Below, one piece after another: positions 3,410 through 41,623 of a DNA stretch of 64,000 bases. This stretch comes from Candidatus Omnitrophota bacterium. GTDB taxonomy: Bacteria; Omnitrophota; Gorgyraeia; Duberdicusellales; 4484-171. Within the stretch, counting starts at the first letter, position 1, and each line of letters opens with the position of its first letter. Both the position numbers and the translations under genes were made by a program. The stretch is from assembly GCA_043815185.1 (NCBI GenBank), contig JBDRJF010000001.1, forward strand, positions 89,690 through 153,689, read 5' to 3'. The notes under the pieces are model-generated. The model made no database searches, was not told the origin of the DNA, and saw nothing but the letters and a program-made list of their open reading frames with translations.

Positions 3410-4373
3410 TGATTGCTTTATTAAGCTCTTTTTTATTTACGGTGGCTGCTCCCAATTTACCGACTACAATCCCGGCAGCCAAATTAGCAATTATTGCTGC
3501 CTCATTATAAGTGGCCCCGGAAGCTAAACCTAAAGTAAAAACAGCAATTACCGTATCGCCGGCTCCGCTTACGTCAAAAACCTCTAAAGCTGCTGTGGGT
3601 ATATGATAGTGTTCCTTACCGGAAAATAGCAGCATTCCGTCCTCGCCTAAAGTTATCAGCAGCGCTTTAGGGTTTAATTTCTTCATAATTATTTTGCCCA
3701 AGAAAGGTAACTGATTTTTATTTCTTATCTTGATATTTGCTGCCACCTGAGCTTCTTGCAGGTTAGGGGTAAGAGCAGTTACGTCTTCATAATAACTAAA
3801 GTGTTCTTCTTTGGGGTCAACGGTAATTATTTTCTTTTTCTTGCGGCACAAACCTACTAACTTTTCTAACAGTAGAGGATTTATTACCCCTTTACCGTAA
3901 TCTTCGACAATTACCGCATCAAAATTATCTAGGCTCTTCTTGATTTTACTAAGAATCAAGCGGTTTATACTAGCCGCAAGAAATTCCAATGATTCCCAAT
4001 CAACCCTTAACATTTGCTGACGATGGGCAATTATTCTTGTTTTTAAAGTCGTTGGCCGCTGGTCATCTTTAACAATTAAATCAGTGCAAATGCCGCTATC
4101 ATTGATAAGCGAAAACAAACTTTCACCAAAATGATCTTTGCCAATGACTCCGCAAAGGCTTACCTTAGCACCTAAAGCACTAAGGTTTAATCCTACATTG
4201 GCTGCCCCGCCGGGGACAAACTTCTCCTTGTTGGCCCAAACTACCGGAACCGGAGCTTCCGGCGAAACCCGCTCTACCGCTCCAAAAATATGGTGGTCAA
4301 GGATTAAATCCCCGATCACCAGGATATTCTTGCCTCTAAAACGGGAAACAATATTCTTGAGCTTCTCTTTCAT
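3399..4373 (-). CDS. rfaE: D-glycero-beta-D-manno-heptose-7-phosphate kinase (RfaE domain I type, PfkB family)
   Basis: ILVIGDLILDHHIFGAVERVSPEAPVPVV and the C-terminal DVSGAGDT PfkB motif. Only the kinase domain is present. Confidence 0.75.
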   Translation of the reverse strand: MKEKLKNIVSRFRGKNILVIGDLILDHHIFGAVERVSPEAPVPVVWANKEKFVPGGAANVGLNLSALGAKVSLCGVIGKDHFGESLFSLINDSGICTDLIVKDDQRPTTLKTRIIAHRQQMLRVDWESLEFLAASINRLILSKIKKSLDNFDAVIVEDYGKGVINPLLLEKLVGLCRKKKKIITVDPKEEHFSYYEDVTALTPNLQEAQVAANIKIRNKNQLPFLGKIIMKKLNPKALLITLGEDGMLLFSGKEHYHIPTAALEVFDVSGAGDTVIAVFTLGLASGATYNEAAIIANLAAGIVVGKLGAATVNKKELNKAINGE

Positions 4374-28941: not shown

Positions 28942-30390
28942 TTATTTTGATTGCTGATGGGCCGGGCAACTCGTGCCTTTACCTTCTGTTTGAGCTGGAC
29001 ACTTACCAGTCCAACAATAAAGACAAAGTTTTTCCTTGGGCAGACCGATCGCTTCAACCATATCGTCTACGGTTTGATACCTTAAAGTAGTAACCCCTAA
29101 ATCTCTGGCAATCCAGTCTACCATCTGCTTATATTTCTCAGAAGTGCAATCAGTATATTCACAAACATCTTCTAAATCATTACCTTCAATAGCTCGTATA
29201 GCTTTTCGAGCAGCAAGCTCATGGATACTACGCGTGGATAAGTTAAACCGGCAAGGGAACATTAAAGGGGGGCAAGCCGGCCTTACGTGAACCTCTTTGG
29301 CTCCCGAATCCCAGAATTTCTTTATGGTGAAATTCTTGAGCTGGGTTCCTCTTACTATAGAATCATCACAAACAACAATCTTGTTACCTTCAATTATCTC
29401 CTTTATGGGAATAAGCTTCATCTTAGCAACTAAATCACGTGTTTCTTGAGAAGGTGGAGTATAGCTTCGGCCATATCCCGGTGTATATTTTATCAAGGGT
29501 CTGCGGTAAGGACTACCGCTCTCCATGGCATAGCCTATTGCATGGGCAGTCCCGGAATCGGGGACTCCCGAAACTACATCTACCTTTAGATTTTTATCGC
29601 GCCGGGCCAGAATACGTCCGCATCTTTCTCTTACTACTTCGGTATTGATTCCCTCATAATCTGAGGCCGGAAATCCAGTATAAATCCATAAAAATGCACA
29701 GATTTGATTTGCTTCCCTGCCAGGTTTTTTCTCCTTCATTCCTTGCTCAGTTATCAGGATTATTTCACCCGGCCTTAAGTGCCTGATTATCTTAAAGTCA
29801 CTATTAGGGAAAGCGCAAGTCTCAGAAGTAACAGCCAAAGCATCATCCCGTTCACCAACCACAAGGGGTGTATAACCGAATCGATCTCTGGCTGCATATA
29901 TTCCATCCTTATGCAGCAATAGCAGCGAACAGGAACCCTTTATCTTGTCAAACATCTTCTCTATACCGTCGACCAAATCATTCCCCTGGCTGATCAGTTT
30001 TGCTATCAGCTCGGTAGTATTAACCCCGCCCTTGCTTACTTCAGTAAAAGATACTCCCTGATTAAAAAGACTGGCTGTTAATTCTTCGGTATTTTCGATA
30101 AATCCGTTGGTAACTAAACAAAAGGGGCCAAATTTAGAGTTTAAATACATCGGCTGCTCTTCAAAAGCGCTAATCACCCCAATACCTTTATTACCTTTCA
30201 TCTGCTTGTAGTCATCATGGAATTTTGACTTGAATTGGCTCTGAGATATTTTATGTATTTGCCGTATAAGCTCTTTTCCCAAAACTGCCATACCCCCATA
30301 TTCGGTTCCTAGATGGGAGTGATAATCGGTACAATAAAATAAAAGATCCATGCAATCCTTTTGTGAAACTACGCCACAAATTCCGCTCAT
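28942..30390 (-). CDS. PurF-like class II (Ntn) glutamine amidotransferase / phosphoribosyltransferase
   Basis: MSGI-CGVV gives an N-terminal Cys after a short propeptide. It has the PRTase loop VVCDDSIVRGTQ, and C-terminal CLYCWTGKCP resembling the Fe-S type PurF CxxCFTGKYP. The glutaminase-domain R/G motifs are diverged. Confidence 0.7.
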   Translation of the reverse strand: MSGICGVVSQKDCMDLLFYCTDYHSHLGTEYGGMAVLGKELIRQIHKISQSQFKSKFHDDYKQMKGNKGIGVISAFEEQPMYLNSKFGPFCLVTNGFIENTEELTASLFNQGVSFTEVSKGGVNTTELIAKLISQGNDLVDGIEKMFDKIKGSCSLLLLHKDGIYAARDRFGYTPLVVGERDDALAVTSETCAFPNSDFKIIRHLRPGEIILITEQGMKEKKPGREANQICAFLWIYTGFPASDYEGINTEVVRERCGRILARRDKNLKVDVVSGVPDSGTAHAIGYAMESGSPYRRPLIKYTPGYGRSYTPPSQETRDLVAKMKLIPIKEIIEGNKIVVCDDSIVRGTQLKNFTIKKFWDSGAKEVHVRPACPPLMFPCRFNLSTRSIHELAARKAIRAIEGNDLEDVCEYTDCTSEKYKQMVDWIARDLGVTTLRYQTVDDMVEAIGLPKEKLCLYCWTGKCPAQTEGKGTSCPAHQQSK

Positions 30391-30460
30391 TTCAGCTCCT
30401 CCATTATTATTCCCATTATTATTTTAAATACTCCCATCGCGCTACTTAATAGCTTACAGT

Positions 30461-31978
30461 TTATGTCACAAAAAGACTCTTGGAAGAAAAGTTCGGTGCA
30501 CTAGTAAGATTAACTCCCAGTTTACGTAACCCTGCCTCATCTCCCGGGGTAGGCATATGAGTCGTATGTACCTCACAACCTCCGAGCTCTTTAAGTTTCT
30601 CCATAGCCAATTGAGCTGTAGGATTTGTAGCGCTACTGATACTCAAAGCAATTAAAGCCTCTTCCAAATCTAAACTTATTGTCTTTGTACCGGAAAGATT
30701 CTTTTTCAACCTTCCTATTGATTCGATTATAGTCGGTGATAAAAGGTGGATCTTATCCGGTATCTCACCTAGCTTCTTTATAGCATTAAATACAAGACTA
30801 GCTGTTGCATGCATGAGATCTGAGTTCTTACCGGTAACAATAGAACCATCTCTAAGTTCTATGGCCGCACCACAAAAGACACCTTCGTGTCCCTTCTTTT
30901 TCTCTTCAGCCTCTTTAAGCGCATCGTTCGCGGGTTTAACTACCCGGCGATCTTCGGGGCGAAGATTAAGCTCCTCCATAAGTTGTTCGACTCTCTGAAC
31001 TGTTCCTTTGTCGCTAAAACCTATGGCATATTCGCATCTATACCTAAAAAACCGGCGTATAATCTCCTGTTTGGCAGCATCTCTGACTACCGCATCATCG
31101 ATAATTCCGAAACCAGCTCTATTCACCCCCATGTCGGTAGGAGATTTATATATTGCTTCATCTCCGGTGATTTTCTCCAATATCCGCTCAAGAAGAGGGA
31201 AAGCATCAACATCCCGATTGTAATTAATTGCTGTCTTCTGGTAAGTTTCCAAGTGAAAAGGATCAACAAGGTTAAAGTCTCTTAGATCAGCTGTAGCTGC
31301 TTCATAAGCTATGTTAACCTCGTGCTTAAGAGGAAGATTCCAAATGGGAAAGGTCTCGAACTTTGCGTAACCTGCCTTTACTCCTCTTTTATATTCATGA
31401 TAAAGCTGACTAAGGCAAGTAGCAAGTTTCCCGCTTCCTGGGCCTGGGCCGGTAACTACTACTAAGGGCTTCTCGGTCTCAATATAAGTATTCGCACCGT
31501 AGCCTTCATCGCTTACAATTAAATCGACATCTGTAGGGTAACCCTTGGTAAAAAAGTGAGTATAAACTCTAATGTTTCTGCGTTCTAATTTATTTTTGAA
31601 AATTATAGCTGAGGCCTGATTATCAAAACGGGTTATCACCACTGCTGCTATATTAATATCCCAGCTTCTTAAATCATCGATAAGTTTTAAGGCATCGACA
31701 TCGTAGGTAATGCCAAAATCTGCCCGGACCTTCCTTCTTTCAATGTCACCGGCATAGATACAGAGGATAATGTCTGCTTTACCTTTAAGCTTCTGCAAAA
31801 GTCTCATTTTTACGTTAGGGCCAAATCCCGGTAAAACCCTTGAAGCATGGTAATCAAAAACAATCTTGCCGCCAAACTCTAGATAAAGTTTATTATTAAA
31901 CCGCTCAACCCGTTCTAATATAGCGCCTGTCTGCTCTTTAAGGTATTGTTCATTATCAAAACCTGACCGCTTTAGCAT
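30461..31978 (-). CDS. DUF1846 / UPF0371 family protein (P-loop containing)
   Basis: [15 protein letters not shown]...[25 protein letters not shown] and [15 protein letters not shown] closely follow the UPF0371 pattern as I recall it from streptococcal proteins. Confidence 0.8.
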
Positions 31979-32047
31979 CGCTACCCCTTTTAATATTATC
32001 GTCTTTTATTTACTGGTAAAACTTATGCGAGTCATTTCAAGTTTTCT

Positions 32048-35000
32048 TTACACTATTTCTCTATGATACTCCTGAAGAGATTTTAGTGAGATTTTCTTGT
32101 TCTTAAGAGCTTCTATTCCTTCAAGACTGGCGGAAGCCGCAGCCATAGAGGTAATATAAGGAACCTTCTGTTGTATGGCCATAATACGGATATAACTATC
32201 ATCAGTCTTGCTATCCCTTCCCACCGGTGTATTTATGATAATGTGAATGTCTCCGTTTTTAATTGCATCAGCAAGGTTAGGTCTTCCTTCATGAAGCTTC
32301 TTCACCTCTGTATTATTTATTCCGTTTTCCTTAAGAAAGCGGCTAGTTCCTATTGTAGCATAGATATTAAACCCGAGTTTGCTAAACTCTTTGGCTATGT
32401 TAAGTAACTCCGGTTTGTCTTTGTCGGTTACGGTAAGCAAAGCATTTCCCTCTATAGGAAGCTTTAAGTTAGCTGCTGCTTGAGCTTTATAAAAAGCAAT
32501 CCCAAAGGTATCGCCGATTCCCATCACCTCTCCGGTAGCCCTCATCTCAGGGCCAAGTAAAGGGTCTACTTCCGGAAACATATTAAAGGGGAAAACTGCC
32601 TCTTTAACTCCTACGTGAGAAATCTTACGGGGCTTCTGAAGCTCGGGAAAATCTTTTATCTTTTTGCCCACCATTAATTGAGTTGCTATCCGTGCTATGG
32701 AGAGTCCCATGACTTTTGAAACTAACGGTACCGTCCGAGATGCCCGAGGATTAGCTTCCAGAACATATACTTTATCATCACAGATAGCGTACTGGATATT
32801 CATCAATCCAACAACCTTAAGTTCCTTTGCTATTTGAACTGTGTACTTCTTAATAAGCTTTAGATGCTCCTCTTTTATGGTTCTGGTGGGAATCGCACAA
32901 GCAGAATCGCCGGAGTGGACACCGGCAAGTTCTATATGTTCCATCACCGCTGCAACATATACATCCTCTCCGTCAGAAAGAGCATCGACTTCTGCCTCAA
33001 CAGCATGTTCCAGGAATCTGTCAATAAGCATAGGAAAATCGGGGCTCACTTTGATTGCTTCCTGAGCATACTTTTCTAGCATCGTCTGATTATAAACAAT
33101 TTCCATACCCCTGCCTCCCAAAACAAAAGAAGGGCGTACCATAAGCGGGTATCCGATCTTATTGGCAATTTTTATCGCCTCATCTAAAGAACGGGCTGTA
33201 CCGCTCTCGGGCTGGGGAATATCCAGGGCAATCAAGCTTTGCCTAAAATATTCTCGATCTTCGGCTAAACGAATACTTTCCGGCGAAGTGCCGATAATTT
33301 TTAAACCGTTATCTTTCAACTCCTGAGCTATATTCAAAGGAGTTTGGCCGCCAAACTGGACAATAACTCCTTCGGGCTTTTCTTTTTCATAGATAGTTAA
33401 CACATCTTCTACGGTCAAAGGTTCAAAATAGAGTTTGTTAGAAGTATCATAATCAGTAGATACTGTCTCAGGGTTACAATTTATCATAATTGATTCATAG
33501 CCTTCATCCCGCAGGGCAAAAGCAGCATGAACACAGGTATAATCAAACTCTATTCCCTGACCGATCCGGTTAGGTCCTCCGCCTAAAATTAATATTTTCT
33601 TATTTGGCGATACCGACACCTTATCTTCTCCGATATAGGTTGAATAATAGTAAGCGGCATTTTCTACTCCGCTAACCGGAACAACATCGTAACGACCGTT
33701 CTTCTTAAGCCTAATTCTCCTTTCTCTTACTTCTTTCTCCTTCAGCTTAAAAAGCTGAGCTAAATACTTATCTGAGAATCCCAGCTCTTTTGCCTTAATC
33801 AGCTCTCCATCAGCTAAATCTTTCCATTTATTTTTAATTATCGCTTCTTCGAAATCGACAAGCTCCTTCATCTCCCGAATAAACCAAGGGTGGATATAGG
33901 TAACTTTATGAAGCTCCTCAACAGAAATACCTCTGCGTAAAGCTTCATAAATTAAGAATATTCGCTCACTGGAGGGAGCGCTTAACTTGCCTTTTAACTT
34001 GGACAGAGGAAAAGCTTTGAATTCTTCAACACCTAAACCGTACCGGCCTATTTCCAAAGAACGAATAGCTTTCTGAAAAGCCTCTTTGAATGTCTTACCG
34101 ATACTCATTACCTCACCAACAGCCTTCATCTGGGTTCCTAAAATATCCTTGGCTTGAGGAAACTTCTCAAAGGCCCAGCGGGCAAATTTAACAACCACAT
34201 AATCACCGCTAGGTTCATACTTCTCCAAAGTCCCTTCTTTCCAGTAAGGAATCTCATCCATTGTTAGACCGGCAGCTAACTTTGTTGAAATACGGGCTAT
34301 CGGAAAGCCGGTTGCTTTGGAAGCAAGAGCTGAAGAACGCGATGTTCTGGGGTTAATTTCGATAACTACTATTCGATCATCCTTAGGGTTGTGAGCAAAC
34401 TGAATATTTGTTCCGCCAACAACCCCGATTGCATCAACTATCTTGTAGGAATATTCCTGCATTTTATCCTGTAACTCTTTTTTTACGGTAAGCATCGGGG
34501 CAGAACAAAAGCTATCTCCGGTATGAACACCCATAGCATCAATATTTTCGATAAAGCATACGGTAATTTTCTGATTTTTATGATCCCGTACCACTTCCAG
34601 TTCTAATTCTTCCCAGCCGATAACTGCTTCTTCAACTAGAACTTGATGAACAAGACTTGCCGCTAAGCCACGAGTTACAATAATCCTTAATTCCTCTACA
34701 TTGTAAGCAATTCCTCCTCCGGTTCCGCCCATGGTGTAAGCCGGCCTTAATACCACCGGGTAGCCTATCTTCTGGGCTATAGCCTCAGCGGCTTCAACCG
34801 AATGGCTAATTTCCGATTCAGGAAGAGGAATTCCTAATTTCTTCATTGTCTCTTTAAAAATCAGACGATCTTCCCCGCGTTCAATAGCATCAACTTTAAC
34901 CCCGATAATTTTAACCTCGTATTTGGCTAAAATTCCTGCTTTATGAAGACTGGAGGAAAGATTAAGGCCGGTTTGCCCGCCTAAATTAGGCAGCAGAGCA

Positions 35001-35251
35001 TCGGGACGTTCCCGCTTAATAATGGCCTCTAAGCTTTCGATAGTGAGCGGCTCAATATAAGTTTTATCAGCCATACCGGGGTCGGTCATAATCGTTGCCG
35101 GGTTGGAATTAACCAAAACAACTTCATAGCCTTCTTCTTTTAAAGCCTTGCAGGCTTGAGTACCAGAATAATCAAATTCACAGGCTTGCCCGATAATTAT
35201 CGGCCCGGAACCAATAATTAAAACTTTTTTAATATCCTCATATCGCGGCAT
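32048..35251 (-). CDS. carB: carbamoyl-phosphate synthase large subunit
   Basis: 1067 aa with duplicated ATP-grasp halves. N-terminus VLIIGSGPIIIGQACEFDYSG; second half ILILGGGPNRIGQGIEFDY. Confidence 0.95.
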   Translation of the reverse strand: MPRYEDIKKVLIIGSGPIIIGQACEFDYSGTQACKALKEEGYEVVLVNSNPATIMTDPGMADKTYIEPLTIESLEAIIKRERPDALLPNLGGQTGLNLSSSLHKAGILAKYEVKIIGVKVDAIERGEDRLIFKETMKKLGIPLPESEISHSVEAAEAIAQKIGYPVVLRPAYTMGGTGGGIAYNVEELRIIVTRGLAASLVHQVLVEEAVIGWEELELEVVRDHKNQKITVCFIENIDAMGVHTGDSFCSAPMLTVKKELQDKMQEYSYKIVDAIGVVGGTNIQFAHNPKDDRIVVIEINPRTSRSSALASKATGFPIARISTKLAAGLTMDEIPYWKEGTLEKYEPSGDYVVVKFARWAFEKFPQAKDILGTQMKAVGEVMSIGKTFKEAFQKAIRSLEIGRYGLGVEEFKAFPLSKLKGKLSAPSSERIFLIYEALRRGISVEELHKVTYIHPWFIREMKELVDFEEAIIKNKWKDLADGELIKAKELGFSDKYLAQLFKLKEKEVRERRIRLKKNGRYDVVPVSGVENAAYYYSTYIGEDKVSVSPNKKILILGGGPNRIGQGIEFDYTCVHAAFALRDEGYESIMINCNPETVSTDYDTSNKLYFEPLTVEDVLTIYEKEKPEGVIVQFGGQTPLNIAQELKDNGLKIIGTSPESIRLAEDREYFRQSLIALDIPQPESGTARSLDEAIKIANKIGYPLMVRPSFVLGGRGMEIVYNQTMLEKYAQEAIKVSPDFPMLIDRFLEHAVEAEVDALSDGEDVYVAAVMEHIELAGVHSGDSACAIPTRTIKEEHLKLIKKYTVQIAKELKVVGLMNIQYAICDDKVYVLEANPRASRTVPLVSKVMGLSIARIATQLMVGKKIKDFPELQKPRKISHVGVKEAVFPFNMFPEVDPLLGPEMRATGEVMGIGDTFGIAFYKAQAAANLKLPIEGNALLTVTDKDKPELLNIAKEFSKLGFNIYATIGTSRFLKENGINNTEVKKLHEGRPNLADAIKNGDIHIIINTPVGRDSKTDDSYIRIMAIQQKVPYITSMAAASASLEGIEALKNKKISLKSLQEYHREIV

Positions 35252-35275: not shown

Positions 35276-35340
35276 TCCAAAAATAGAAAAAGCGCCCCTT
35301 CTACATCATTGGTTTAGAAAGGACGCCATCATCCACATTG
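35276..35340 (-). promoter_or_regulatory. carB leader: conserved hairpin plus U-tract motif (copy Y)
   Basis: Minus strand: GGATGATGGCGTCCTTTCTAAACCAATGATGTAGAAGGGGCGCTTTTTCTATTTTTGG. The 12-bp stem is complete only on the minus-strand RNA (two G-U pairs). A related copy lies at 41041..41101. Confidence 0.6.
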
Positions 35341-35346
35341 GGATTG

Positions 35347-35375
35347 ATTATCCGATAAATTTGGCTAATAGTCAA
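35347..35375 (-). promoter_or_regulatory. sigma70-like promoter TTGACT-17-GATAAT for carB
   Basis: The minus strand reads TTGACTattagccaaatttatcgGATAAT, with an A/T-rich stretch upstream. Confidence 0.5.
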
Positions 35376-35468: not shown

Positions 35469-35497
35469 TTGACAAGTGTAAAGTAATAGTTTACACT
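35469..35497 (+). promoter_or_regulatory. sigma70-like promoter TTGACA-17-TACACT for the HTH-glnA gene
   Basis: TTGACAagtgtaaagtaatagttTACACT. It is overlapped by the inverted repeat at 35472..35500. Confidence 0.45.
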
Positions 35498-35500
35498 TGT
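35472..35500. promoter_or_regulatory. perfect 11-bp inverted repeat ACAAGTGTAAA-N7-TTTACACTTGT (candidate operator)
   Basis: Read directly. It spans the -35/-10 spacer and the -10 of the glnA promoter. Confidence 0.6.
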
Positions 35501-35512
35501 AATGTAGAATGA

Positions 35513-35666
35513 AGCTTAGGTTTACAGAACAAAGTGAAAGTAAACCTTTAGCTGAATTCACCCGAAACATTCTTTAAAAATTTCATAGAAATTTTTAAAG
35601 TATTTAGATGTTTCGGGATAATTCGCACTTATCACTTATGTTCACTTCGTTCCGTAAGTGATGTGC
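35513..35666 (+). promoter_or_regulatory. structured 5' UTR of HTH-glnA (three adjacent hairpins)
   Basis: P1 at 35513..35553 (AGCTtAGGTTTAC/GTAAACCTttAGCT). P2 at 35554..35624 (GAATT, CCCGAAACA and a 12-bp CTTTAAAAATTT stem). P3 at 35625..35666 (GCACttATCACTTA/TAAGTGATGTGC). The Shine-Dalgarno sequence is left unpaired. Confidence 0.45.
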
Positions 35667-35683: not shown

Positions 35684-37219
35684 ATGGAACAGGAATATTT
35701 AAGCCCGACTCAAGCCGCTAAAATTCTAAAAATATCCCGTCAAGCAGTTATTGAACGCATAAAACATGGAGCCCTTTACGCTGAGCGGGTGGGAAAACGA
35801 TATATAATCCCCCGGGGTGAACTTCCCACCGAAGATGCTCTCTTAAAAGATCGGAAAACCAAAACAAACATTTCCTTGGAGAGTAAGAAGAGCCGGAAGG
35901 ATATGATAAGAAAAGTTTTAGAAAAGGTGCATCGGGAAAATATAAAGACCATACAGCTCTGGTTTGTGGATATCTTAGGAACCTTAAAATGCGTTTCGAT
36001 TACCCAAAGAGAATTAAAAGATGCTTTAGGCCATGGCAAGGGGTTTGACGGTTCTTCTGTTACCGGTTTTGCCGAAGCTGAAGAAAGTGATATTGTTGCT
36101 TTGCCAGATCCTGCCACTTTTAAAGTCTTGCCTTGGACGATTGAAACCGGTCCTATTGCCAGAATGCTCTGCGATATACTCAGCCCTGATTTTACCCCTT
36201 ATGCTGGTGATAGCCGCTATGTTCTTAAAAGAGCCTTGGCCCGGGCAAAGAAGTTAGGCTTTACTTTCTATGTCGGACCAGAGTTAGAATACTTTTACTT
36301 TAAGTCTGCTCGAAAACCAGAAATTATAGACGAAGGTTCTTACTTTGAGCTAATACCCAACGATTTAGCCAATACCTTAAGAAATAAAACCGTAAAAGTC
36401 TTAGAAGAGATGGGTATACCGATGGAGGCAACCCACCATGAAGTTGCCCCTTCACAACATGAAATTGACCTAAAATATAACGATGCTCTTACTATGGCTG
36501 ACAACGTAATAACTTGTAAATATGTGATCAAGGAAATTGCCCAACAGAATGGCGTCTATGCTACTTTTATGCCCAAACCCCTCTTTGGAGTGAATGGTTC
36601 AGGAATGCATGTTCACCAATCGTTGTTTAAGGGCAGCCAAAATTCTTTCTTTGATAAAAAAGACAAGTATCACCTTTCATCCGTGGCCAAAGGATTCATT
36701 GCTGGTGAACTAAAGCATGCCCGGGAAATTTCCTCTCTAACTGCTCAGTGGGTAAATTCCTATAAACGTCTGGTTTCCGGGTATGAAGCGCCGGTATATG
36801 CTTCCTGGGCTCAAAAAAACCGTACTGCTCTGCTGCGAGTTCCGGTATACCGGCCGAGAAACGAAAAAGCAACCCGGGTAGAATTACGCTGCCCTGACCC
36901 CGCTTGCAACCCCTACTTAGCCTTTGCCGTAATGCTAGCAGCCGGGTTGGAAGGTGTAGAAAAGAAATATCAGCTTCCTCCTGCTGTTGAACCTAATATC
37001 TACCGGATGGCTATGGAAGAAAGAGAACGAAGGGGGCTTACCTCACTTCCCGGGAATCTTTTTGAAGCCATTATTGAAACTGAAAAAAGTACCTTTGTGC
37101 GGGAAACTTTGGGAGCCCACATCTTCAACAGATTCTTGTTCAATAAAAAGAAAGAATGGGAAGATTACCGGATCCAGATTACTGAACATGAAATTAAGAA
37201 ATACCTTCCCCTGCTCTAG
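35684..37219 (+). CDS. glnA: type I glutamine synthetase with N-terminal excisionase/MerR-type HTH domain
   Basis: ATG 35684 follows an AAGGAGG Shine-Dalgarno sequence (the track start GTG 35663 is rejected). Residues 4-48 (EYLSPTQAAKILKISRQAVIERIKHGALYAERVGKRYIIPRGEL) look like HTH_17. From about aa 85 it is a full GS (QLWFVDILG, GSGMHVHQS, NRTALLRVP). Confidence 0.85.
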   Translation: MEQEYLSPTQAAKILKISRQAVIERIKHGALYAERVGKRYIIPRGELPTEDALLKDRKTKTNISLESKKSRKDMIRKVLEKVHRENIKTIQLWFVDILGTLKCVSITQRELKDALGHGKGFDGSSVTGFAEAEESDIVALPDPATFKVLPWTIETGPIARMLCDILSPDFTPYAGDSRYVLKRALARAKKLGFTFYVGPELEYFYFKSARKPEIIDEGSYFELIPNDLANTLRNKTVKVLEEMGIPMEATHHEVAPSQHEIDLKYNDALTMADNVITCKYVIKEIAQQNGVYATFMPKPLFGVNGSGMHVHQSLFKGSQNSFFDKKDKYHLSSVAKGFIAGELKHAREISSLTAQWVNSYKRLVSGYEAPVYASWAQKNRTALLRVPVYRPRNEKATRVELRCPDPACNPYLAFAVMLAAGLEGVEKKYQLPPAVEPNIYRMAMEERERRGLTSLPGNLFEAIIETEKSTFVRETLGAHIFNRFLFNKKKEWEDYRIQITEHEIKKYLPLL

Positions 37220-37247: not shown

Positions 37248-37285
37248 AAAAAGGCGCCTCCTCAAAACCGGAGGCGCCTTTTATT
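37248..37285. terminator. bidirectional intrinsic terminator between convergent glnA and gdhA
   Basis: aaaaaGGCGCCTCC-tcaaaacc-GGAGGCGCCttttatt. It has an A-run upstream and a T-run downstream. Confidence 0.8.
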
Positions 37286-37310: not shown

Positions 37311-38666
<1,356 letters not shown>

Positions 38667-38679
38667 TTAAAATATTTTA

Positions 38680-40098
38680 TTACTTTTGAGAAAGATGTCT
38701 AATTATTCCTTGGCATGCCTTCTTTGCCATACCCATAGCTTCGATGACTGTTCCTTCTCCTCCGACAATATCTCCTCCGGCAAATACACCCTTTACAGAA
38801 GTCTCCATACTTTCCGAATCTACTTCCAGATCGCCGTATTTATCAACTTTTAAATCCGGAGTAACACTAGTCAAGACTCTGTTGGCGCCTAAACCCACTG
38901 CCACTATAGCTAAATCGCAATGATTTTCAAAATCACTGCCTTCAATAGGTAAAGGCCTCCTTCGCCCCGATTCATCCGGCTCACCCAAGCGGCACTCTAA
39001 AGATCTTATTTTCTTCACAAAACCTGAGCCATCACTGCTAAACTCCTGGGGCTGAACTAAAAATTTAAAAAGAACTCCTTCTTCCTTAGCATGCTCAATC
39101 TCTAAGCGCCTTGCCGGCATCTCAATTTCTCTACGTCGATAAAAGATTGTTACGCTCGGCTTAATTCCCTTTATCTTCTGCAGGCGCAAAGCAACTCGGG
39201 CCGCATCCATAGCGGTATTACCTCCACCGATAACAACCATATTCTCACCGACATTAATCGGAGTATGGAATTGAGGGAATTTATATGCTGACATAAGATT
39301 TACCCGAGTTAGAAACTCATTAGCCGAATAAACATTGCAGAAATTCTCACCCTTTATCTTTAAAAAAGATGGCACACCAGCGCCTAAACCTAAAAATACC
39401 GCTGAAAACCTCTCTCTGAAAAGTTCATCCAAAACCTTGGTTCTTCCGATAATAAGATTAGGTATAAATTCCACTCCTAACTTTTTAAGATAGTCTAGCT
39501 CAAAGTCTAAAATATCCCGCGGTAACCTGAAAGGCGGAATGCCATATCTTAAGACTCCTCCGGTTTTATGTAACCCTTCAAAAATAACTGATTGTATACC
39601 CTGGCGGCTTAATTCTCCAGCTACAGACAAACCAGCCGGCCCGGAGCCCACAATTGCTACTTTAAATTTAGAAAACCTTCCTTTTTTTTGCAAAGGAACT
39701 TCTAAATTATTCCTGATCCCGTAATCACCGACGAACCTCTCTAGAAAATGAATGTTAATTGCTTCCTCGGAAGCAAAAGGTAAACCCTTTTTACTAAATA
39801 CACAAGTCTTCCGGCATTGATACTCAGCCGGACAAACCCTTCCGCAGATAGAAGGAAAATCATTCTTTTCTCTAATCTTAAAATAAGCTCCCTCATAGTC
39901 TTTCTCTGTAATCTGGGCGATGAATTTCTTTATATCTATTTCTACCGGACAACCATCAATACAAGTAGGATTCTTACATTGAATACAGCGCTTAGCTTCA
40001 AGAAGAGCCTCTTCTTCATTGTAGCCAAGAGCAACTTCTTCAAAGTTACTTGCTCTAACTTTCGCCTCTAATTCTCTTATTCTTACCGGTTCTTTCAT
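38680..40098 (-). CDS. nfnB: GltD-like NADPH-dependent oxidoreductase, large subunit (NfnB / SudA type)
   Basis: N-terminal Cys clusters CIQCKNPTCIDGCP, VAIVGSGPAGLSVA, and a second GGGNTAMD fold. Paired with a PyrK-like subunit. Confidence 0.75.
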   Translation of the reverse strand: MKEPVRIRELEAKVRASNFEEVALGYNEEEALLEAKRCIQCKNPTCIDGCPVEIDIKKFIAQITEKDYEGAYFKIREKNDFPSICGRVCPAEYQCRKTCVFSKKGLPFASEEAINIHFLERFVGDYGIRNNLEVPLQKKGRFSKFKVAIVGSGPAGLSVAGELSRQGIQSVIFEGLHKTGGVLRYGIPPFRLPRDILDFELDYLKKLGVEFIPNLIIGRTKVLDELFRERFSAVFLGLGAGVPSFLKIKGENFCNVYSANEFLTRVNLMSAYKFPQFHTPINVGENMVVIGGGNTAMDAARVALRLQKIKGIKPSVTIFYRRREIEMPARRLEIEHAKEEGVLFKFLVQPQEFSSDGSGFVKKIRSLECRLGEPDESGRRRPLPIEGSDFENHCDLAIVAVGLGANRVLTSVTPDLKVDKYGDLEVDSESMETSVKGVFAGGDIVGGEGTVIEAMGMAKKACQGIIRHLSQK

Positions 40099-40101
40099 TT
40101 C

Positions 40102-40163
40102 ATGGATACAATCTATCGGTTGAGGCTTAGCCTCAACCGGCTCCGCCTTCGGCGGAGATTGTA
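40102..40163 (-). repeat. copy B of the two-hairpin intergenic element (first copy at 18856..18916)
   Basis: Minus strand: TACAATCTCCGCCGAAGGCGGAGCCGGTTGAGGCTAAGCCTCAACCGATAGATTGTATCCAT. It occupies essentially the whole nfnA-nfnB spacer. Confidence 0.7.
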
Positions 40164-40167
40164 TACC

Positions 40168-40998
40168 TCATAACTTGTAAAGATTACAAATATGTTTCTC
40201 TTTGTCCTCGTATACCTTATTCCTCTTAATTAGCTCATCCCAATCGATTAGAGAAGCATCAAATTCCGGACCATCTACACAAGTAAATTTGACTACTCCA
40301 TCCACGGTAACCCGACAACCTCCGCACATACCAGTAGCATCAATCATCAATGAATTTAATGATACTAAAGTCTTTATCCCCGAATCTTTAGTGACTAACG
40401 AAACTTTTTTCATCATCGGGACCGGGCCAACAGCATAAATAAGACCATGCTGCTCCTTACTAATAAGTTCTTTTAATATATCGGTAGTAAATCCCTTCTG
40501 ACCGCAAGAGCCGTCGTCAGTAGCGATAAGTAGCTCATCAGAAACTGTTTTTAGCTCCCCTTCTAAGATTAAGAGATCTTTTGTCCTTGCTCCCAGTATA
40601 GTAGTCACCTGATTCCCGGCAGCCTTTAACTCTCTAGCTGCCGGATAGATCTCGGCAATACCGACCCCTCCTCCTACTAAAATTACCTTCCCGTATTTTT
40701 TTATCTCGGTATGGTGGCCTAAGGGGCCAACTAAAGCGTAGAGGGACTCACCGATCTCTAAGCGGCCTAGGAGCTTAGTAGTCAACCCTACCTCTTGGAC
40801 AATTAAGGTGATAGTGCCGTCTTCTGTATCTTTCTCAACTACGGTTAACGGCACTCTTTCCCCGACTTCCGATACCATCAAAATTACGAATTGACCCGGC
40901 TTTGCTTTTTCAGCAATATCGGGAGCGACTACCTTTAATTGAGTAATCCTTACCCCTAAAGCATCAACTAAGATATTCTTTTCCACTATTTTTGCCAT
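40168..40998 (-). CDS. nfnA: PyrK-like FAD/[2Fe-2S] electron-transfer subunit (NfnA / SudB type)
   Basis: Ferredoxin-reductase fold (GQFVILM, VGGGVGIA) and C-terminal MCGGCRV...CVDGPEF. Confidence 0.75.
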   Translation of the reverse strand: MAKIVEKNILVDALGVRITQLKVVAPDIAEKAKPGQFVILMVSEVGERVPLTVVEKDTEDGTITLIVQEVGLTTKLLGRLEIGESLYALVGPLGHHTEIKKYGKVILVGGGVGIAEIYPAARELKAAGNQVTTILGARTKDLLILEGELKTVSDELLIATDDGSCGQKGFTTDILKELISKEQHGLIYAVGPVPMMKKVSLVTKDSGIKTLVSLNSLMIDATGMCGGCRVTVDGVVKFTCVDGPEFDASLIDWDELIKRNKVYEDKEKHICNLYKL

Positions 40999-41040: not shown

Positions 41041-41101
41041 CATAAAATAAAAAAAGCGCCTTTTCTTTTACATCTTGTATAAAGAAAAGACGCCTTCGTC
41101 C
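41041..41101 (-). promoter_or_regulatory. nfnA-nfnB-gdhA leader: conserved hairpin plus U-tract motif (copy X)
   Basis: Minus strand: GGACGAAGGCGTCTTTTCTTTATACAAGATGTAAAAGAAAAGGCGCTTTTTTTATTTTATGG. The 13-bp stem has a G-U at the same position as copy Y. Confidence 0.6.
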
Positions 41102-41107
41102 TTCCTT

Positions 41108-41135
41108 AATATAACAATACAAATTAAATTGTCAA
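41108..41135 (-). promoter_or_regulatory. sigma70-like promoter TTGACA-16-TATATT immediately upstream of leader motif X
   Basis: The minus strand reads TTGACAatttaatttgtattgtTATATT, lying 18 nt downstream of the stop of the preceding gene. Confidence 0.5.
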
Positions 41136-41152: not shown

Positions 41153-41623
41153 TTACGGGGTAAACCACAGTTGAACTATTCCGCTAACTGCTAAACTTAC
41201 TATTAAACCAGCAACAGCCACACCCAAAAAAATTGCTAAAAACGCTCTCCTTACTGGTATCTCAAATAAAGTTGCAGCTACTGTTCCAGTCCAGGCTCCA
41301 GTTATTGGCAAGGGTATAGCCACAAAAAGAATCAGGCCCCAGAATCTCCAACGTTCCACAAGCTTTGATCTTTCCTCTACCTTACTAAACCACCACTTAA
41401 AAAACTTATCTAGAAATTTTATGTTCTCCAGGTGATGAAAAGAATACTTAAAGAACAATAACAATGGTAAGACTGGAATCAAATTGCCTAAAAGAACCAG
41501 AAAGTAAAGACGAGTCAAAGGCACTCCTAGGGCAAAACCTAAAGGTATCGCGCCCCGTAACTCAAAAATAGGCAGGGCTGCTGTCCCGATTACTTTAAAT
41601 TCATCGACTCCAACCATATTCAC
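41153..41623 (-). CDS. small integral membrane protein (COG2426 / small multidrug export-like)
   Basis: ALPIFELRGAIPLG motif and four predicted TM segments. Confidence 0.55.
   Translation of the reverse strand: MNMVGVDEFKVIGTAALPIFELRGAIPLGFALGVPLTRLYFLVLLGNLIPVLPLLLFFKYSFHHLENIKFLDKFFKWWFSKVEERSKLVERWRFWGLILFVAIPLPITGAWTGTVAATLFEIPVRRAFLAIFLGVAVAGLIVSLAVSGIVQLWFTP

What the first reader, a model, noticed from the sequence alone, without database searches (positions are those of the whole stretch)
41041..41135. Copy X of the shared leader motif, placed between a consensus promoter and nfnA-nfnB-gdhA
The order on the minus strand is:
- the stop of the small membrane gene at 41153,
- TTGACA-16-TATATT at 41135..41108,
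- then, about 7 nt after the -10, GGACGAAGGCGTCTTTTCTTTATACAAGATGTAAAAGAAAAGGCGCTTTTTTTATTTTATGG.

The promoter sits between the upstream stop codon and the hairpin. The hairpin could therefore terminate the upstream transcript and also act on transcripts initiated at this promoter. The G-U pair falls at the same stem position as in copy Y (fourth base pair). The downstream operon couples an NfnAB-type ferredoxin/NADPH module to NADP-GDH, so a shared control element with carB would tie carbamoyl-phosphate synthesis to ammonium assimilation.
Basis: partly seen in the sequence, partly recalled or inferred. Interest (0 to 1): 0.55.

Follow-up and report, generated by a model that had tools for sequence, protein, structure and literature searches.

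The report
Single-hairpin ANTAR-type nitrogen attenuator before nfnAB-gdhA
The hairpin between the promoter and nfnA is a transcription stop signal whose first half can instead fold into the small six-base-loop hairpin bound by ANTAR antiterminator proteins; this marks nfnAB-gdhA and carB as parts of one nitrogen regulon in an uncultivated Omnitrophota bacterium, in an unusual form with one hairpin instead of the classical two.

Summary
A near-consensus promoter (TTGACA-16-TGtTATATT, 41135..41108, minus strand) is followed about 6 nt later by a strong terminator hairpin plus U-tract, then nfnA-nfnB-gdhA. A related module precedes carB.

The shared 5' part is not just a stem base. It is a mini-hairpin, GGAC[GAAGGC]GUCU in X and GGAU[GAUGGC]GUCC in Y. 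Its loop and 3' half form the 5' arm of the terminator, so the two folds exclude each other. This is the P2 element of ANTAR-target antiterminator RNAs (hexaloop with G at position 4).

A genome-wide pattern scan found the same GAC[AANGGC]GUC-plus-terminator in many phyla before nitrogen genes. Outside Omnitrophota a first hexaloop hairpin (P1) precedes it in 63 of 92 cases. In Omnitrophota-type loci P1 is found in 1 of 22, and the promoter sits directly upstream.

Related Omnitrophota encode a conserved GAF-ANTAR protein inside this gene island, once immediately upstream of a P2-only nfnA leader with the same GAC[GAAGGC]GUCU core.

Best explanation: an ANTAR-dependent attenuator in a single-hairpin variant. 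No ANTAR gene lies in the 64-kb window, so the regulator in this genome is inferred.

The parts
41108..41135 (-). Sigma-70-type promoter of the nfnA leader: -35 TTGACA at 41135..41130, extended -10 TGtTATATT at 41116..41108. The predicted transcription start is about 41102..41100.
   Evidence: Best site in the scan, 11 of 12 matches plus TG. It is conserved almost base for base in L001, L003, L005, L008, L093 and L143. The start site is predicted, not mapped.
41088..41101 (-). P2 antiterminator mini-hairpin GGAC[GAAGGC]GUCU. The loop is 41097..41092 and the invariant loop G4 is G41094. The stem can extend to AAGGAC/GUCUUU (41103..41086).
   Evidence: Read directly from the sequence. It folds alone at -4.3 kcal/mol. 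In 37 Omnitrophota leaders 87% of stem cells are paired and pair 9-22 shows GC 19, AU 12, GU 5. The fourth pair covaries in 115 hits, Fisher p = 2.8e-11.
41055..41094 (-). Intrinsic terminator stem-loop: 5' arm GGCGUCUUUUCUUU (41094..41081), loop 41080..41069, 3' arm AAAGAAAAGGCGCU (41068..41055). The 5' arm reuses loop positions 4-6 and the 3' stem of P2.
   Evidence: Energies of -22.7 to -23 kcal/mol, 0 of 200 shuffles as stable. In orthologues the loop sequence varies while the arms stay complementary.
41042..41055 (-). U-tract of the terminator (TTTTTTTATTTTAT).
   Evidence: Sequence. It is present in all orthologous leaders.
37311..40998 (-). Controlled operon: nfnA (40998..40168), nfnB (40098..38680) and an ELFV-family glutamate dehydrogenase, gdhA (38651..37311).
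   Evidence: Pfam and NCBIfam hits. The nfnB product passes the TIGR01316 cut-off (494 bits against 472). The operon is syntenic in L001-L010, L129 and L143.
35347..35375 (-). Promoter of the carB leader (TTGACT-17-GATAAT), belonging to copy Y.
   Evidence: Promoter scan. Conserved in L001, L003, L005, L007, L008 and L128.
35281..35334 (-). Copy Y: P2 GGAU[GAUGGC]GUCC (35334..35321), overlapping terminator (35327..35291), and U-tract (35290..35281). The carB ATG at 35251 follows.
   Evidence: It lies in a divergent intergenic region, so it cannot be the terminator of an upstream gene.

Best explanation
X is a transcription attenuator of the ANTAR-target type, in a form with one hairpin.

Proposed mechanism:
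- RNA polymerase starts about 6-8 nt after the -10 hexamer.
- The first roughly 15 nt of the RNA can fold into a small hairpin, P2: GGAC[GAAGGC]GUCU.
- Left alone, this weak hairpin (about -4 kcal/mol) is displaced by the much stronger terminator (about -23 kcal/mol), which reuses GGCGUCU as its 5' arm. Transcription then stops at the U-tract, about 45 nt before nfnA.
- When an active ANTAR-domain protein binds the hexaloop hairpin, the 5' arm is held back, the terminator cannot form, and nfnA-nfnB-gdhA is transcribed. The likely protein is the GAF-ANTAR regulator conserved across Omnitrophota.
- The same element before carB places both operons in one nitrogen regulon. In relatives that regulon also includes gdhA, gltB, pyrG, purL and GS-III with P2-only leaders, and glnA and amtB with classical two-hairpin leaders.

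Shown here: the anatomy, the mutual exclusivity of the two folds, conservation and covariation, the regulon content, and the link to ANTAR genes in relatives.

Inferred: the start site, protein binding, that a single hairpin suffices, the presence of the regulator in this genome, and the signal sensed by the GAF domain.
For: 1. Anatomy. The P2 loop and 3' stem are the terminator's 5' arm.

2. P2 is a real helix.
- 87% of stem cells are paired in 37 Omnitrophota leaders, against 44-58% when the partner is slid.
- The compensatory pair shows GC 19 and AU 12.
- The stem pair not fixed by my search pattern covaries: A-U 47, G-C 38, G-U 14, A-C 5; p = 2.8e-11.
- Loop positions A2 and G4 are invariant in 37 of 37 leaders.

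3. The same GAC[AANGGC]GUC-plus-terminator appears in 118 or more loci of many phyla.
- Outside Omnitrophota it is preceded by a first hexaloop hairpin in 63 of 92 cases, against 6.5% in shuffles. That is the classical dual-hairpin ANTAR target.
- It stands before gltB, nrtA-like genes, nirB, glnA and amtB.

4. Literature.
- ANTAR targets are hexaloop hairpins with A1 and G4, the second one overlapping a terminator, mostly before nitrogen genes (PMC3369931).
- The Geobacter ANTAR regulator GnfR is proposed to bind CAGGCAANGGCGCC, which carries the same AANGGC loop (PMC2995071).
- The minimal ANTAR binding unit was redefined as a single hexaloop (PMC8934654).

5. GAF-ANTAR genes sit in the same island in relatives.
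- L010: glnA-ANTAR-amtB-glnB-gltB, with classical dual leaders.
- L129: nfnAB-gdhA, gltB, glnA-ANTAR, carB.
- L131: nfnAB-icd-ANTAR.
- L143: ANTAR directly upstream of a P2-only nfnA leader, AGAC[GAAGGC]GUCU, in a genome with the same HTH-glnA and carB layout as the window.
- The protein is 75-89% identical across many Omnitrophota.

6. Downstream genes of Omnitrophota P2-only leaders are nitrogen-assimilating or glutamine-using enzymes.
Against: - No ANTAR ORF is found in the 64-kb window or in the closest syntenic loci L001-L008 (tblastn). The rest of this genome could not be read.
- The classical defining feature, a P1 hairpin, is absent. There is room for only a few nucleotides between the start site and P2. 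P1 was found in 1 of 22 Omnitrophota-type leaders, at chance level.
- For EutV, both hairpins and the correct linker length were needed in vivo, and a single stem-loop bound more weakly (PMC3369931).
- Loop position 1 is G in X and Y, not the canonical A. G1 could pair with C6, giving a tetraloop in the free RNA.
- The marine relative L131 has an ANTAR gene but no such leader before nfnA.
- No expression or binding data exist.
Confidence: 0.75

Rival explanations
1. This is an attenuator with a different effector. The terminator directly after the start site would be controlled by something other than an ANTAR protein: another RNA-binding protein, a small ligand, or NTP-sensitive reiterative transcription as in the Bacillus pyrG leader. 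The resemblance to ANTAR P2 would then be inherited or convergent.
For: P1 is absent and no ANTAR gene lies in the window. The architecture, with a terminator right at the 5' end, a purine-rich start and a pyrimidine-rich 5' arm, recalls the pyrG leader; Rfam gave a weak PyrG_leader match (16.5 bits, E = 6.3). pyrG itself carries the element in L039 and L087.
Against: The conserved positions are exactly those of ANTAR hexaloops: A2 and G4 invariant and the stem covarying. The initially transcribed sequences differ among copies (one search list), which argues against a start-site slippage signal. At about 50 nt with one helix, the leader is too small for a known riboswitch, and no Rfam family reaches threshold. 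ANTAR genes are physically linked to the element in four relatives.
Confidence: 0.1
2. This is a decayed or constitutive element. It would be a former dual-hairpin ANTAR leader that lost P1 and now acts only as a leaky, unregulated terminator that damps expression and stops read-through from the upstream operon.
For: P1 is missing. The upstream gene in the window has no terminator of its own before the promoter. EutV needed both hairpins in vivo.
Against: The P2-only layout recurs before at least eight different gene families in more than 20 Omnitrophota, Auribacterota and related MAGs, with an invariant loop and a covarying stem. A -23 kcal/mol terminator with a seven-U tract in front of central genes (GDH, CarB, CTP synthase) would be costly if never relieved. 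Copy Y has no upstream gene to terminate.
Confidence: 0.08
3. This is a plain terminator of the upstream membrane-protein operon. The promoter match would be fortuitous and nfnA would be transcribed from elsewhere.
For: The hairpin lies about 60 nt after the stop codon at 41153, and promoter-like sites are not enriched in the region overall (30 found against 27.6 expected).
Against: The promoter is the best match in the region and is conserved base for base while flanking DNA diverges. In L008 a separate terminator precedes it. In L143 the upstream gene is different (ANTAR) but the promoter-P2-terminator module is the same. No room or signal for another promoter exists between the U-tract and the ATG.
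Confidence: 0.04
4. This is a DNA operator. The inverted repeat would be a binding site for a dimeric transcription factor, for example the HTH-fused glutamine synthetase encoded next door.
For: It is a long inverted repeat just downstream of a promoter. A DNA-binding domain is fused to GS in this genome.
Against: The arms change by compensatory substitutions rather than keeping a sequence. Arm lengths and spacing vary between copies, with loops of about 4 to 20 nt. A U-tract always follows and the orientation relative to the gene is fixed. The palindrome at the glnA promoter (AGTGTAAA-N7-TTTACACT) is unrelated and occurs only once in the window.
Confidence: 0.03

Closest known systems
ANTAR-target dual-hexaloop antiterminator RNAs (EutV at eutP/G/S/A, NasR at nasF, AmiR at amiE; Ramesh et al. 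2012, PMC3369931)
   Same: A mini-hairpin with a stem of at least 3 bp and a six-base loop with G at position 4. Its 3' half is the 5' arm of an intrinsic terminator. It precedes nitrogen-metabolism genes, and an ANTAR-domain protein is encoded nearby in relatives.
   Different: There is no first hairpin (P1) and no linker, because the element starts within a few nucleotides of the predicted start site. Loop position 1 is G in X and Y instead of A. The presumed regulator has a GAF sensor domain, not a receiver, NIT or AmiR-type domain, and is uncharacterised.
Geobacter GnfK/GnfR antitermination of nitrogen-fixation and assimilation genes (Ueki and Lovley 2010, PMC2995071)
   Same: The proposed binding sequence CAGGCAANGGCGCC is a GGC[AANGGC]GCC hairpin at or overlapping terminators. 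It has the same AANGGC loop as the family found here, and it belongs to a nitrogen regulon.
   Different: GnfR is a response regulator. The Geobacter stem is GGC/GCC rather than GAC/GUC. Those leaders follow RpoN promoters and are not reported as single hairpins at the 5' end.
Single-hexaloop ANTAR binding proposed by Walshe et al. 2022 (PMC8934654)
   Same: That work redefined the minimal ANTAR binding unit as one hexaloop and asked what single-hexaloop sites do. X is a natural single-hexaloop site.
   Different: [quoted passage not shown] Here the single hexaloop overlaps a terminator, which implies co-transcriptional action.
BglG/SacY RAT antiterminators
   Same: One protein-stabilised hairpin that overlaps the terminator's 5' arm.
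   Different: RAT is an unrelated sequence and structure of 29-30 nt, bound by a CAT domain, with sugar-PTS control.
Bacillus subtilis pyrG leader
   Same: A terminator placed immediately after the start site, with no room for a conventional upstream antiterminator. pyrG is one of the genes carrying the Omnitrophota element.
   Different: The pyrG mechanism relies on CTP-sensitive reiterative addition of G residues at a GGGC start. No such conserved start sequence exists here, and the Rfam PyrG_leader score is far below threshold (16.5 against 65 bits).

Membership tests
ANTAR-target antiterminator RNA (dual-hexaloop definition, Ramesh 2012) | Mini-hairpin with at least 3 base pairs and a six-nucleotide terminal loop | tested here: met
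   X is GGAC[GAAGGC]GUCU, with 4 bp extendable to 6; Y is GGAU[GAUGGC]GUCC. The stem is supported by covariation. Caveat: G1-C6 could close to a tetraloop in the free RNA.
ANTAR-target antiterminator RNA (dual-hexaloop definition, Ramesh 2012) | Loop position 4 is G and position 1 is A | tested here: inconclusive
   G4 is invariant in 37 of 37 Omnitrophota leaders. Position 1 is G in X and Y, and across the set it is A in 23 and G in 14. G1 also occurs in P2 of clear dual-hairpin leaders such as L048, L125 and the L010 gltB leader, so it appears to be tolerated. The effect on binding is untested.
ANTAR-target antiterminator RNA (dual-hexaloop definition, Ramesh 2012) | The hairpin nearest the gene (P2) overlaps the 5' arm of an intrinsic terminator, so the two folds are mutually exclusive | tested here: met
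   Bases 41094..41088 belong both to P2 (loop positions 4-6 and the 3' stem) and to the terminator's 5' arm. The terminator is -22.7 kcal/mol and P2 is -4.3 kcal/mol.
ANTAR-target antiterminator RNA (dual-hexaloop definition, Ramesh 2012) | A first hexaloop hairpin (P1) lies 5-12 nt upstream of P2 | tested here: not met
   Only about 6 nt separate the -10 hexamer from P2 in X. A P1-like hairpin within 40 nt was found in 1 of 22 Omnitrophota-type leaders (shuffles 8.6%), against 63 of 92 in other phyla. The terminator loop does not supply a consistent second hexaloop.
ANTAR-target antiterminator RNA (dual-hexaloop definition, Ramesh 2012) | An ANTAR-domain protein is encoded in the same genome | not testable with these tools
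   None is found in the 64-kb window or in the loci L001-L008, and the remainder of the genome cannot be read. It is present in related Omnitrophota within the same gene island (L010, L129, L131, L143). Contig lengths suggest it shares contigs with the HTH-GS gene; this is confirmed directly in L143 and L145.
ANTAR-target antiterminator RNA (dual-hexaloop definition, Ramesh 2012) | Association with nitrogen-metabolism genes | tested here: met
   The element precedes nfnAB-gdhA and carB in the window. In relatives it precedes gdhA, gltB, pyrG, purL and GS-III with P2-only leaders, and glnA and amtB with dual-hairpin leaders.
Minimal single-hexaloop ANTAR site (Walshe 2022 redefinition) | One hexaloop hairpin with G4 available for stacking on the ANTAR domain | tested here: met
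   Sequence and structure fit. Actual binding was not tested.
PyrG-type reiterative-transcription leader (RF02371) | Match to the covariance model and a conserved GGGC start sequence | tested here: not met
   16.5 bits against a gathering score of 65, E = 6.3. The sequences between the -10 hexamer and the hairpin differ between copies.
Any Rfam 15 family | Score at or above the gathering threshold | tested here: not met
   The window yields only a tRNA, and nothing significant appears at X or Y. Rfam also fails on a classical dual-hairpin example (L013), so this library has no ANTAR-target model and the negative result is uninformative.

The most novel reading that the evidence does not exclude
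Omnitrophota and neighbouring lineages may use a P2-only ANTAR attenuator. In this reading, one hexaloop hairpin at the very 5' end of the transcript is enough for a GAF-ANTAR protein to prevent termination co-transcriptionally. It would control a broad nitrogen regulon that includes NADPH supply (NfnAB), GDH, CarB, CTP synthase and PurL. That would contradict the view that ANTAR antitermination needs two correctly spaced hairpins, and it would provide the natural single-hexaloop targets that the 2022 structural work asked for.
Probability: 0.45. Interest if true: 0.65.

Novelty: new variant of a known kind. Interest (0 to 1): 0.5.

Why it matters
It assigns a mechanism and a regulon to an unannotated leader in an uncultivated phylum. 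NfnAB-GDH, CarB and, in relatives, glutamate synthase, CTP synthase, PurL and GS-III appear to share one antitermination switch.

For the ANTAR field, it offers a set of natural leaders in which one hexaloop overlaps a terminator with no P1. This makes an open question directly testable: is the second hairpin mechanistically required, or is it only a kinetic aid? It also points to the uncharacterised GAF-ANTAR architecture as a nitrogen-related sensor.

Tried and rejected
- Rfam at gathering and permissive thresholds gave nothing. It is also blind to a canonical ANTAR leader.
- Mini-ORF in the loop. ATG-TAA occurs in X and ATG-ATG-TAG in Y, but this is not conserved in orthologues. Rejected.
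- Purine-rich 5' end as a pyrG-like poly-G antiterminator. The purines simply extend the P2 stem to 6 bp against the U/C tract. Rejected as a separate mechanism.
- TnrA/GlnR-like operator at the X or Y promoters. The glnA-promoter palindrome occurs once in the window. Rejected.
- A second hexaloop inside the terminator loop. It is seen in L001, L003, L005 and L093 (GU[AACGAA]AC) and in L034, but not in the window or most other copies. Not general.
- An ANTAR ORF in the window or syntenic loci by tblastn. None found.
- Finding the ANTAR gene of the window's own clade by looking up homologues.
- A covariance model built from the pattern hits was not made. Those hits were selected with a pattern derived from X and Y, so a match back to X and Y would be circular.

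Full report
**1. Observation**

On the minus strand, the PF06695 membrane-protein ORF ends at 41153. A promoter-like site follows at 41135..41108: TTGACA-16-TATATT with a TG extended -10. It is the best match in a 12-kb scan, at 11 of 12 positions.

Six nucleotides after the -10 hexamer the sequence reads GGACGAAGGCGTCTTTTCTTTATACAAGATGTAAAAGAAAAGGCGCTTTTTTTATTTTATGG. It folds into a hairpin of -22.7 to -23 kcal/mol, and 0 of 200 shuffles fold as well. A U-tract follows, and the nfnA ATG is at 40998.

- Downstream genes are an NfnA-like FAD/NAD protein, an NfnB/GltD-like protein that passes the TIGR01316 cut-off, and an ELFV-family glutamate dehydrogenase, gdhA.
- Copy Y has the same layout upstream of carB, at 35375..35281.
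- A structural descriptor scan of both strands finds only X and Y in intergenic DNA. Three further hits lie inside genes and match the shuffle background.

**2. Source organism and conservation**

NfnA homologues of 70-90% identity come from Candidatus Omnitrophota MAGs. The window's GS is 100% identical to an NCBI Omnitrophota MAG protein.

- Loci from eight related genomes keep the surrounding gene order.
- The nfnA leader is retained with its promoter, its 5' motif and terminator arms, while the loop sequence changes. The carB leader behaves the same way.
- One relative (L007) has lost the nfnA leader, and there nfnA overlaps the upstream gene.

**3. What the shared motif is**

The conserved 5' part of X and Y is a mini-hairpin with a six-base loop:

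- X: GGAC[GAAGGC]GUCU
- Y: GGAU[GAUGGC]GUCC
- Orthologues: GGAU[AAAGGC]GUCC, GGAC[AAAGGC]GUUC, GGAC[AAGGGU]GUCC and AGAC[AAGGGC]GUCU

Loop positions 4-6 and the 3' stem (GGCGUCU) are also the start of the terminator's 5' arm, so the two folds exclude each other. Alone, the small hairpin is worth about -4 kcal/mol against about -23 kcal/mol for the terminator. Termination is therefore the default, and something must stabilise the small hairpin for read-through.

I aligned 37 non-identical Omnitrophota leaders:

- Loop positions A2 and G4 are invariant.
- The stem is 87% paired, against 44-58% when the partner columns are slid.
- One pair shows true compensation: GC 19, AU 12, GU 5, unpaired 1.

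**4. Link to ANTAR**

The more distant Omnitrophota locus L010 has glnA followed by a GAF-ANTAR gene, amtB, glnB and gltB. Its glnA, amtB and gltB leaders are textbook ANTAR targets: two hexaloop hairpins (AAAGAG/AAAGCC, AAAGCA, AAAGAA/GAAGAC), with one hexaloop hairpin overlapping the terminator's 5' arm. Its nfnA leader has only the hairpin that overlaps the terminator.

The published definition is two hairpins of at least 3 bp with hexaloops, A at position 1 and G at position 4, P2 overlapping the terminator, mostly before nitrogen genes (PMC3369931). The Geobacter ANTAR regulator GnfR is proposed to bind CAGGCAANGGCGCC, which has the same AANGGC loop (PMC2995071).

**5. Genome-wide scan**

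I searched GAYRANGGCGTCYYTT-N(12-35)-GRCGCYTTTT, entered as its reverse complement, against one genome per GTDB species. My rough estimate was that about two matches would occur by chance.

*Outside Omnitrophota (Desulfobacterales, Nitrospira, Burkholderiales, Comamonas, Pseudomonas and others):*
- 63 of 92 hits have an upstream hexaloop hairpin within 40 nt, for example gCAC[AAAGGC]GUGc. Shuffled sequence gives 6.5%.
- The downstream genes are gltB, nrtA-like genes, nirB, glnA and amtB.

*In Omnitrophota, Auribacterota and similarly structured MAGs:*
- Only 1 of 22 hits has such a hairpin, at the chance level of 8.6%.
- Instead, a TTGACA-17-TATATT promoter ends 6-12 nt before the motif.
- The downstream genes are nfnA, gdhA, carB, an archaeal-type gltB, pyrG, purL, GS-III, a 6-phosphogluconolactonase/NagB-like gene and a porin.

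The stem pair not fixed by my pattern covaries across all hits: A-U 47, G-C 38, G-U 14, A-C 5; Fisher p = 2.8e-11.

**6. The regulator in relatives**

The GAF-ANTAR protein is 75-89% identical across many Omnitrophota. Its position in four relatives:

| Locus | Gene arrangement |
|---|---|
| L010 | glnA-ANTAR-amtB-glnB-gltB |
| L129 (bin66 chromosome, CP070684) | nfnAB-gdhA, gltB, glnA-ANTAR, carB-DUF1846 |
| L131 | nfnAB-icd-ANTAR-PII-amtB |
| L143 | ANTAR, then promoter plus AGAC[GAAGGC]GUCU plus terminator before nfnAB, then gdhA, divergent HTH-glnA, carB |

- In L129, single-hairpin and dual-hairpin leaders coexist, with three attenuators in tandem before gltB.
- L143 has the same layout and the same GAC[GAAGGC]GUCU P2 core as the window.
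- Matching contig lengths suggest that HTH-GS and ANTAR genes share contigs in several Omnitrophota, and L143 and L145 show this directly. The GS fusion therefore does not replace ANTAR.
- In the window itself no ANTAR ORF is present. In L141 the gene sits elsewhere in the genome, so a distant location is plausible, but this remains untested here.

**7. Mechanism and its status**

- *Shown:* the anatomy, the mutual exclusivity of the two folds, conservation, covariation, the regulon content and genomic linkage to ANTAR.
- *Inferred:* the start site at about 41101, binding of GAF-ANTAR to P2, antitermination with one hairpin, and the signal sensed.

The 2022 EutV-RNA structures showed that an ANTAR dimer contacts one hexaloop at a time. 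That work redefined the minimal site as a single hexaloop and left the role of such sites open (PMC8934654). However, EutV needed both hairpins in vivo. The Omnitrophota leaders are therefore a variant and not a member of the classical dual-hairpin family.

**8. Rivals**

| Rival | Main argument against it |
|---|---|
| Plain upstream terminator | Copy Y has no upstream co-directional gene, L008 has a separate terminator, and the promoter is conserved |
| DNA operator | Compensatory arm changes, variable spacing and an obligatory U-tract; the glnA-promoter palindrome is unique |
| pyrG-like or riboswitch mechanism | No model match and no conserved start sequence |
| Decayed relic | Recurrence before many genes in many species under clear constraint |

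**9. Verdict**

The element is an ANTAR-type attenuator of a nitrogen regulon, in a single-hairpin form that has not been described to my knowledge. Two targeted literature searches found no report of it.

- Confidence in the ANTAR-type attenuator reading: 0.75
- Interest: moderate (0.5)
- Novelty: new variant of a known kind

Noticed in passing
window 35684..37219 (+) and 35472..35500 (+): The glutamine synthetase has an N-terminal HTH_17/excisionase-type DNA-binding domain fused to a type I GS. Nearly all of its 120 best homologues, all from Omnitrophota where a name is given, carry the same fusion. Its own core promoter (TTGACA-17-TACACT) is covered by a perfect palindrome, ACAAGTGTAAA-N7-TTTACACTTGT. 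The half-sites resemble the TGTNA/TNACA of GlnR/TnrA boxes (recalled from my own knowledge) but sit 2 bp further apart. The palindrome is conserved in L001, L003, L004, L007, L008, L020 and L025 and occurs only once in the window. This may be a GS that acts as its own transcription factor.
   Followed up: partly
window 35520..35657: There is a long imperfect hairpin (CCCGAAACATTCTTTAAAAATTTC...AAATTTTTAAAG..GTTTCGGG) in the glnA 5' UTR. It gave a microRNA-precursor-like Rfam match at E = 1e-4, far below that family's threshold. The orthologous leader in L001 is much shorter and seems to lack it, so it may be an insertion.
   Followed up: no
window 28942..35251 (-): carB is followed by a DUF1846/PRK13663 gene and a class II (purF-like) glutamine amidotransferase that scores below the purF cut-off. 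No carA is nearby. The carB-DUF1846 pair is conserved across Omnitrophota loci. This may be an alternative amidotransferase partner for CarB.
   Followed up: no
L129 6340..6640; L129 10980..11190; L131 6550..6760; L096 about 3490..3560: ANTAR-type attenuators occur in tandem in front of one gene: three before gltB and two before carB in bin66, three before PII-amtB in L131, and two before GS-III in L096. Where seen, the first is usually a dual hairpin and the later ones are single.
   Followed up: partly
L129 10717..10953; L141 4993..5229: A conserved 78-residue protein (MPYN..LDEC.F.K.WE....RLTV.V.SYNKG.KKLQI.RENK...) with no Pfam hit directly follows the GAF-ANTAR gene in two unrelated genomic contexts. 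In L131 a 78-residue P-II fragment occupies that position instead.
   Followed up: no
L025 (JAIWAR010000001.1); L011, L020, L032, L070, L090, L093, L128: A contig labelled Methanosarcinales archaeon carries an Omnitrophota-type carB leader and a CarB 86.5% identical to the window's, so it is probably mis-binned. Several MAGs labelled 'uncultured Planctomycetia' carry loci syntenic with Omnitrophota.
   Followed up: no
L031, L076, L098 (Exiguobacterium and a Bacillales bacterium): The search pattern also hits GAUAAAGGCGUCCC plus a terminator; the downstream gene is pyrB in L031, the one case checked against Pfam. These are possibly PyrR-type attenuators that resemble the motif by chance. No GAF-ANTAR link was examined.
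   Followed up: no
window 37249..37282: A 13-bp GC-rich hairpin (AAAAGGCGCCTCC...GGAGGCGCCTTTT), flanked by A and T runs, lies between the convergent gdhA and glnA genes. It looks like a bidirectional terminator.
   Followed up: no
L131 2220..2334: A marine Omnitrophota relative with nfnAB-icd-ANTAR in one cluster has no hexaloop or terminator leader before nfnA. Control of nfnAB by this element is therefore lineage-specific.
   Followed up: partly
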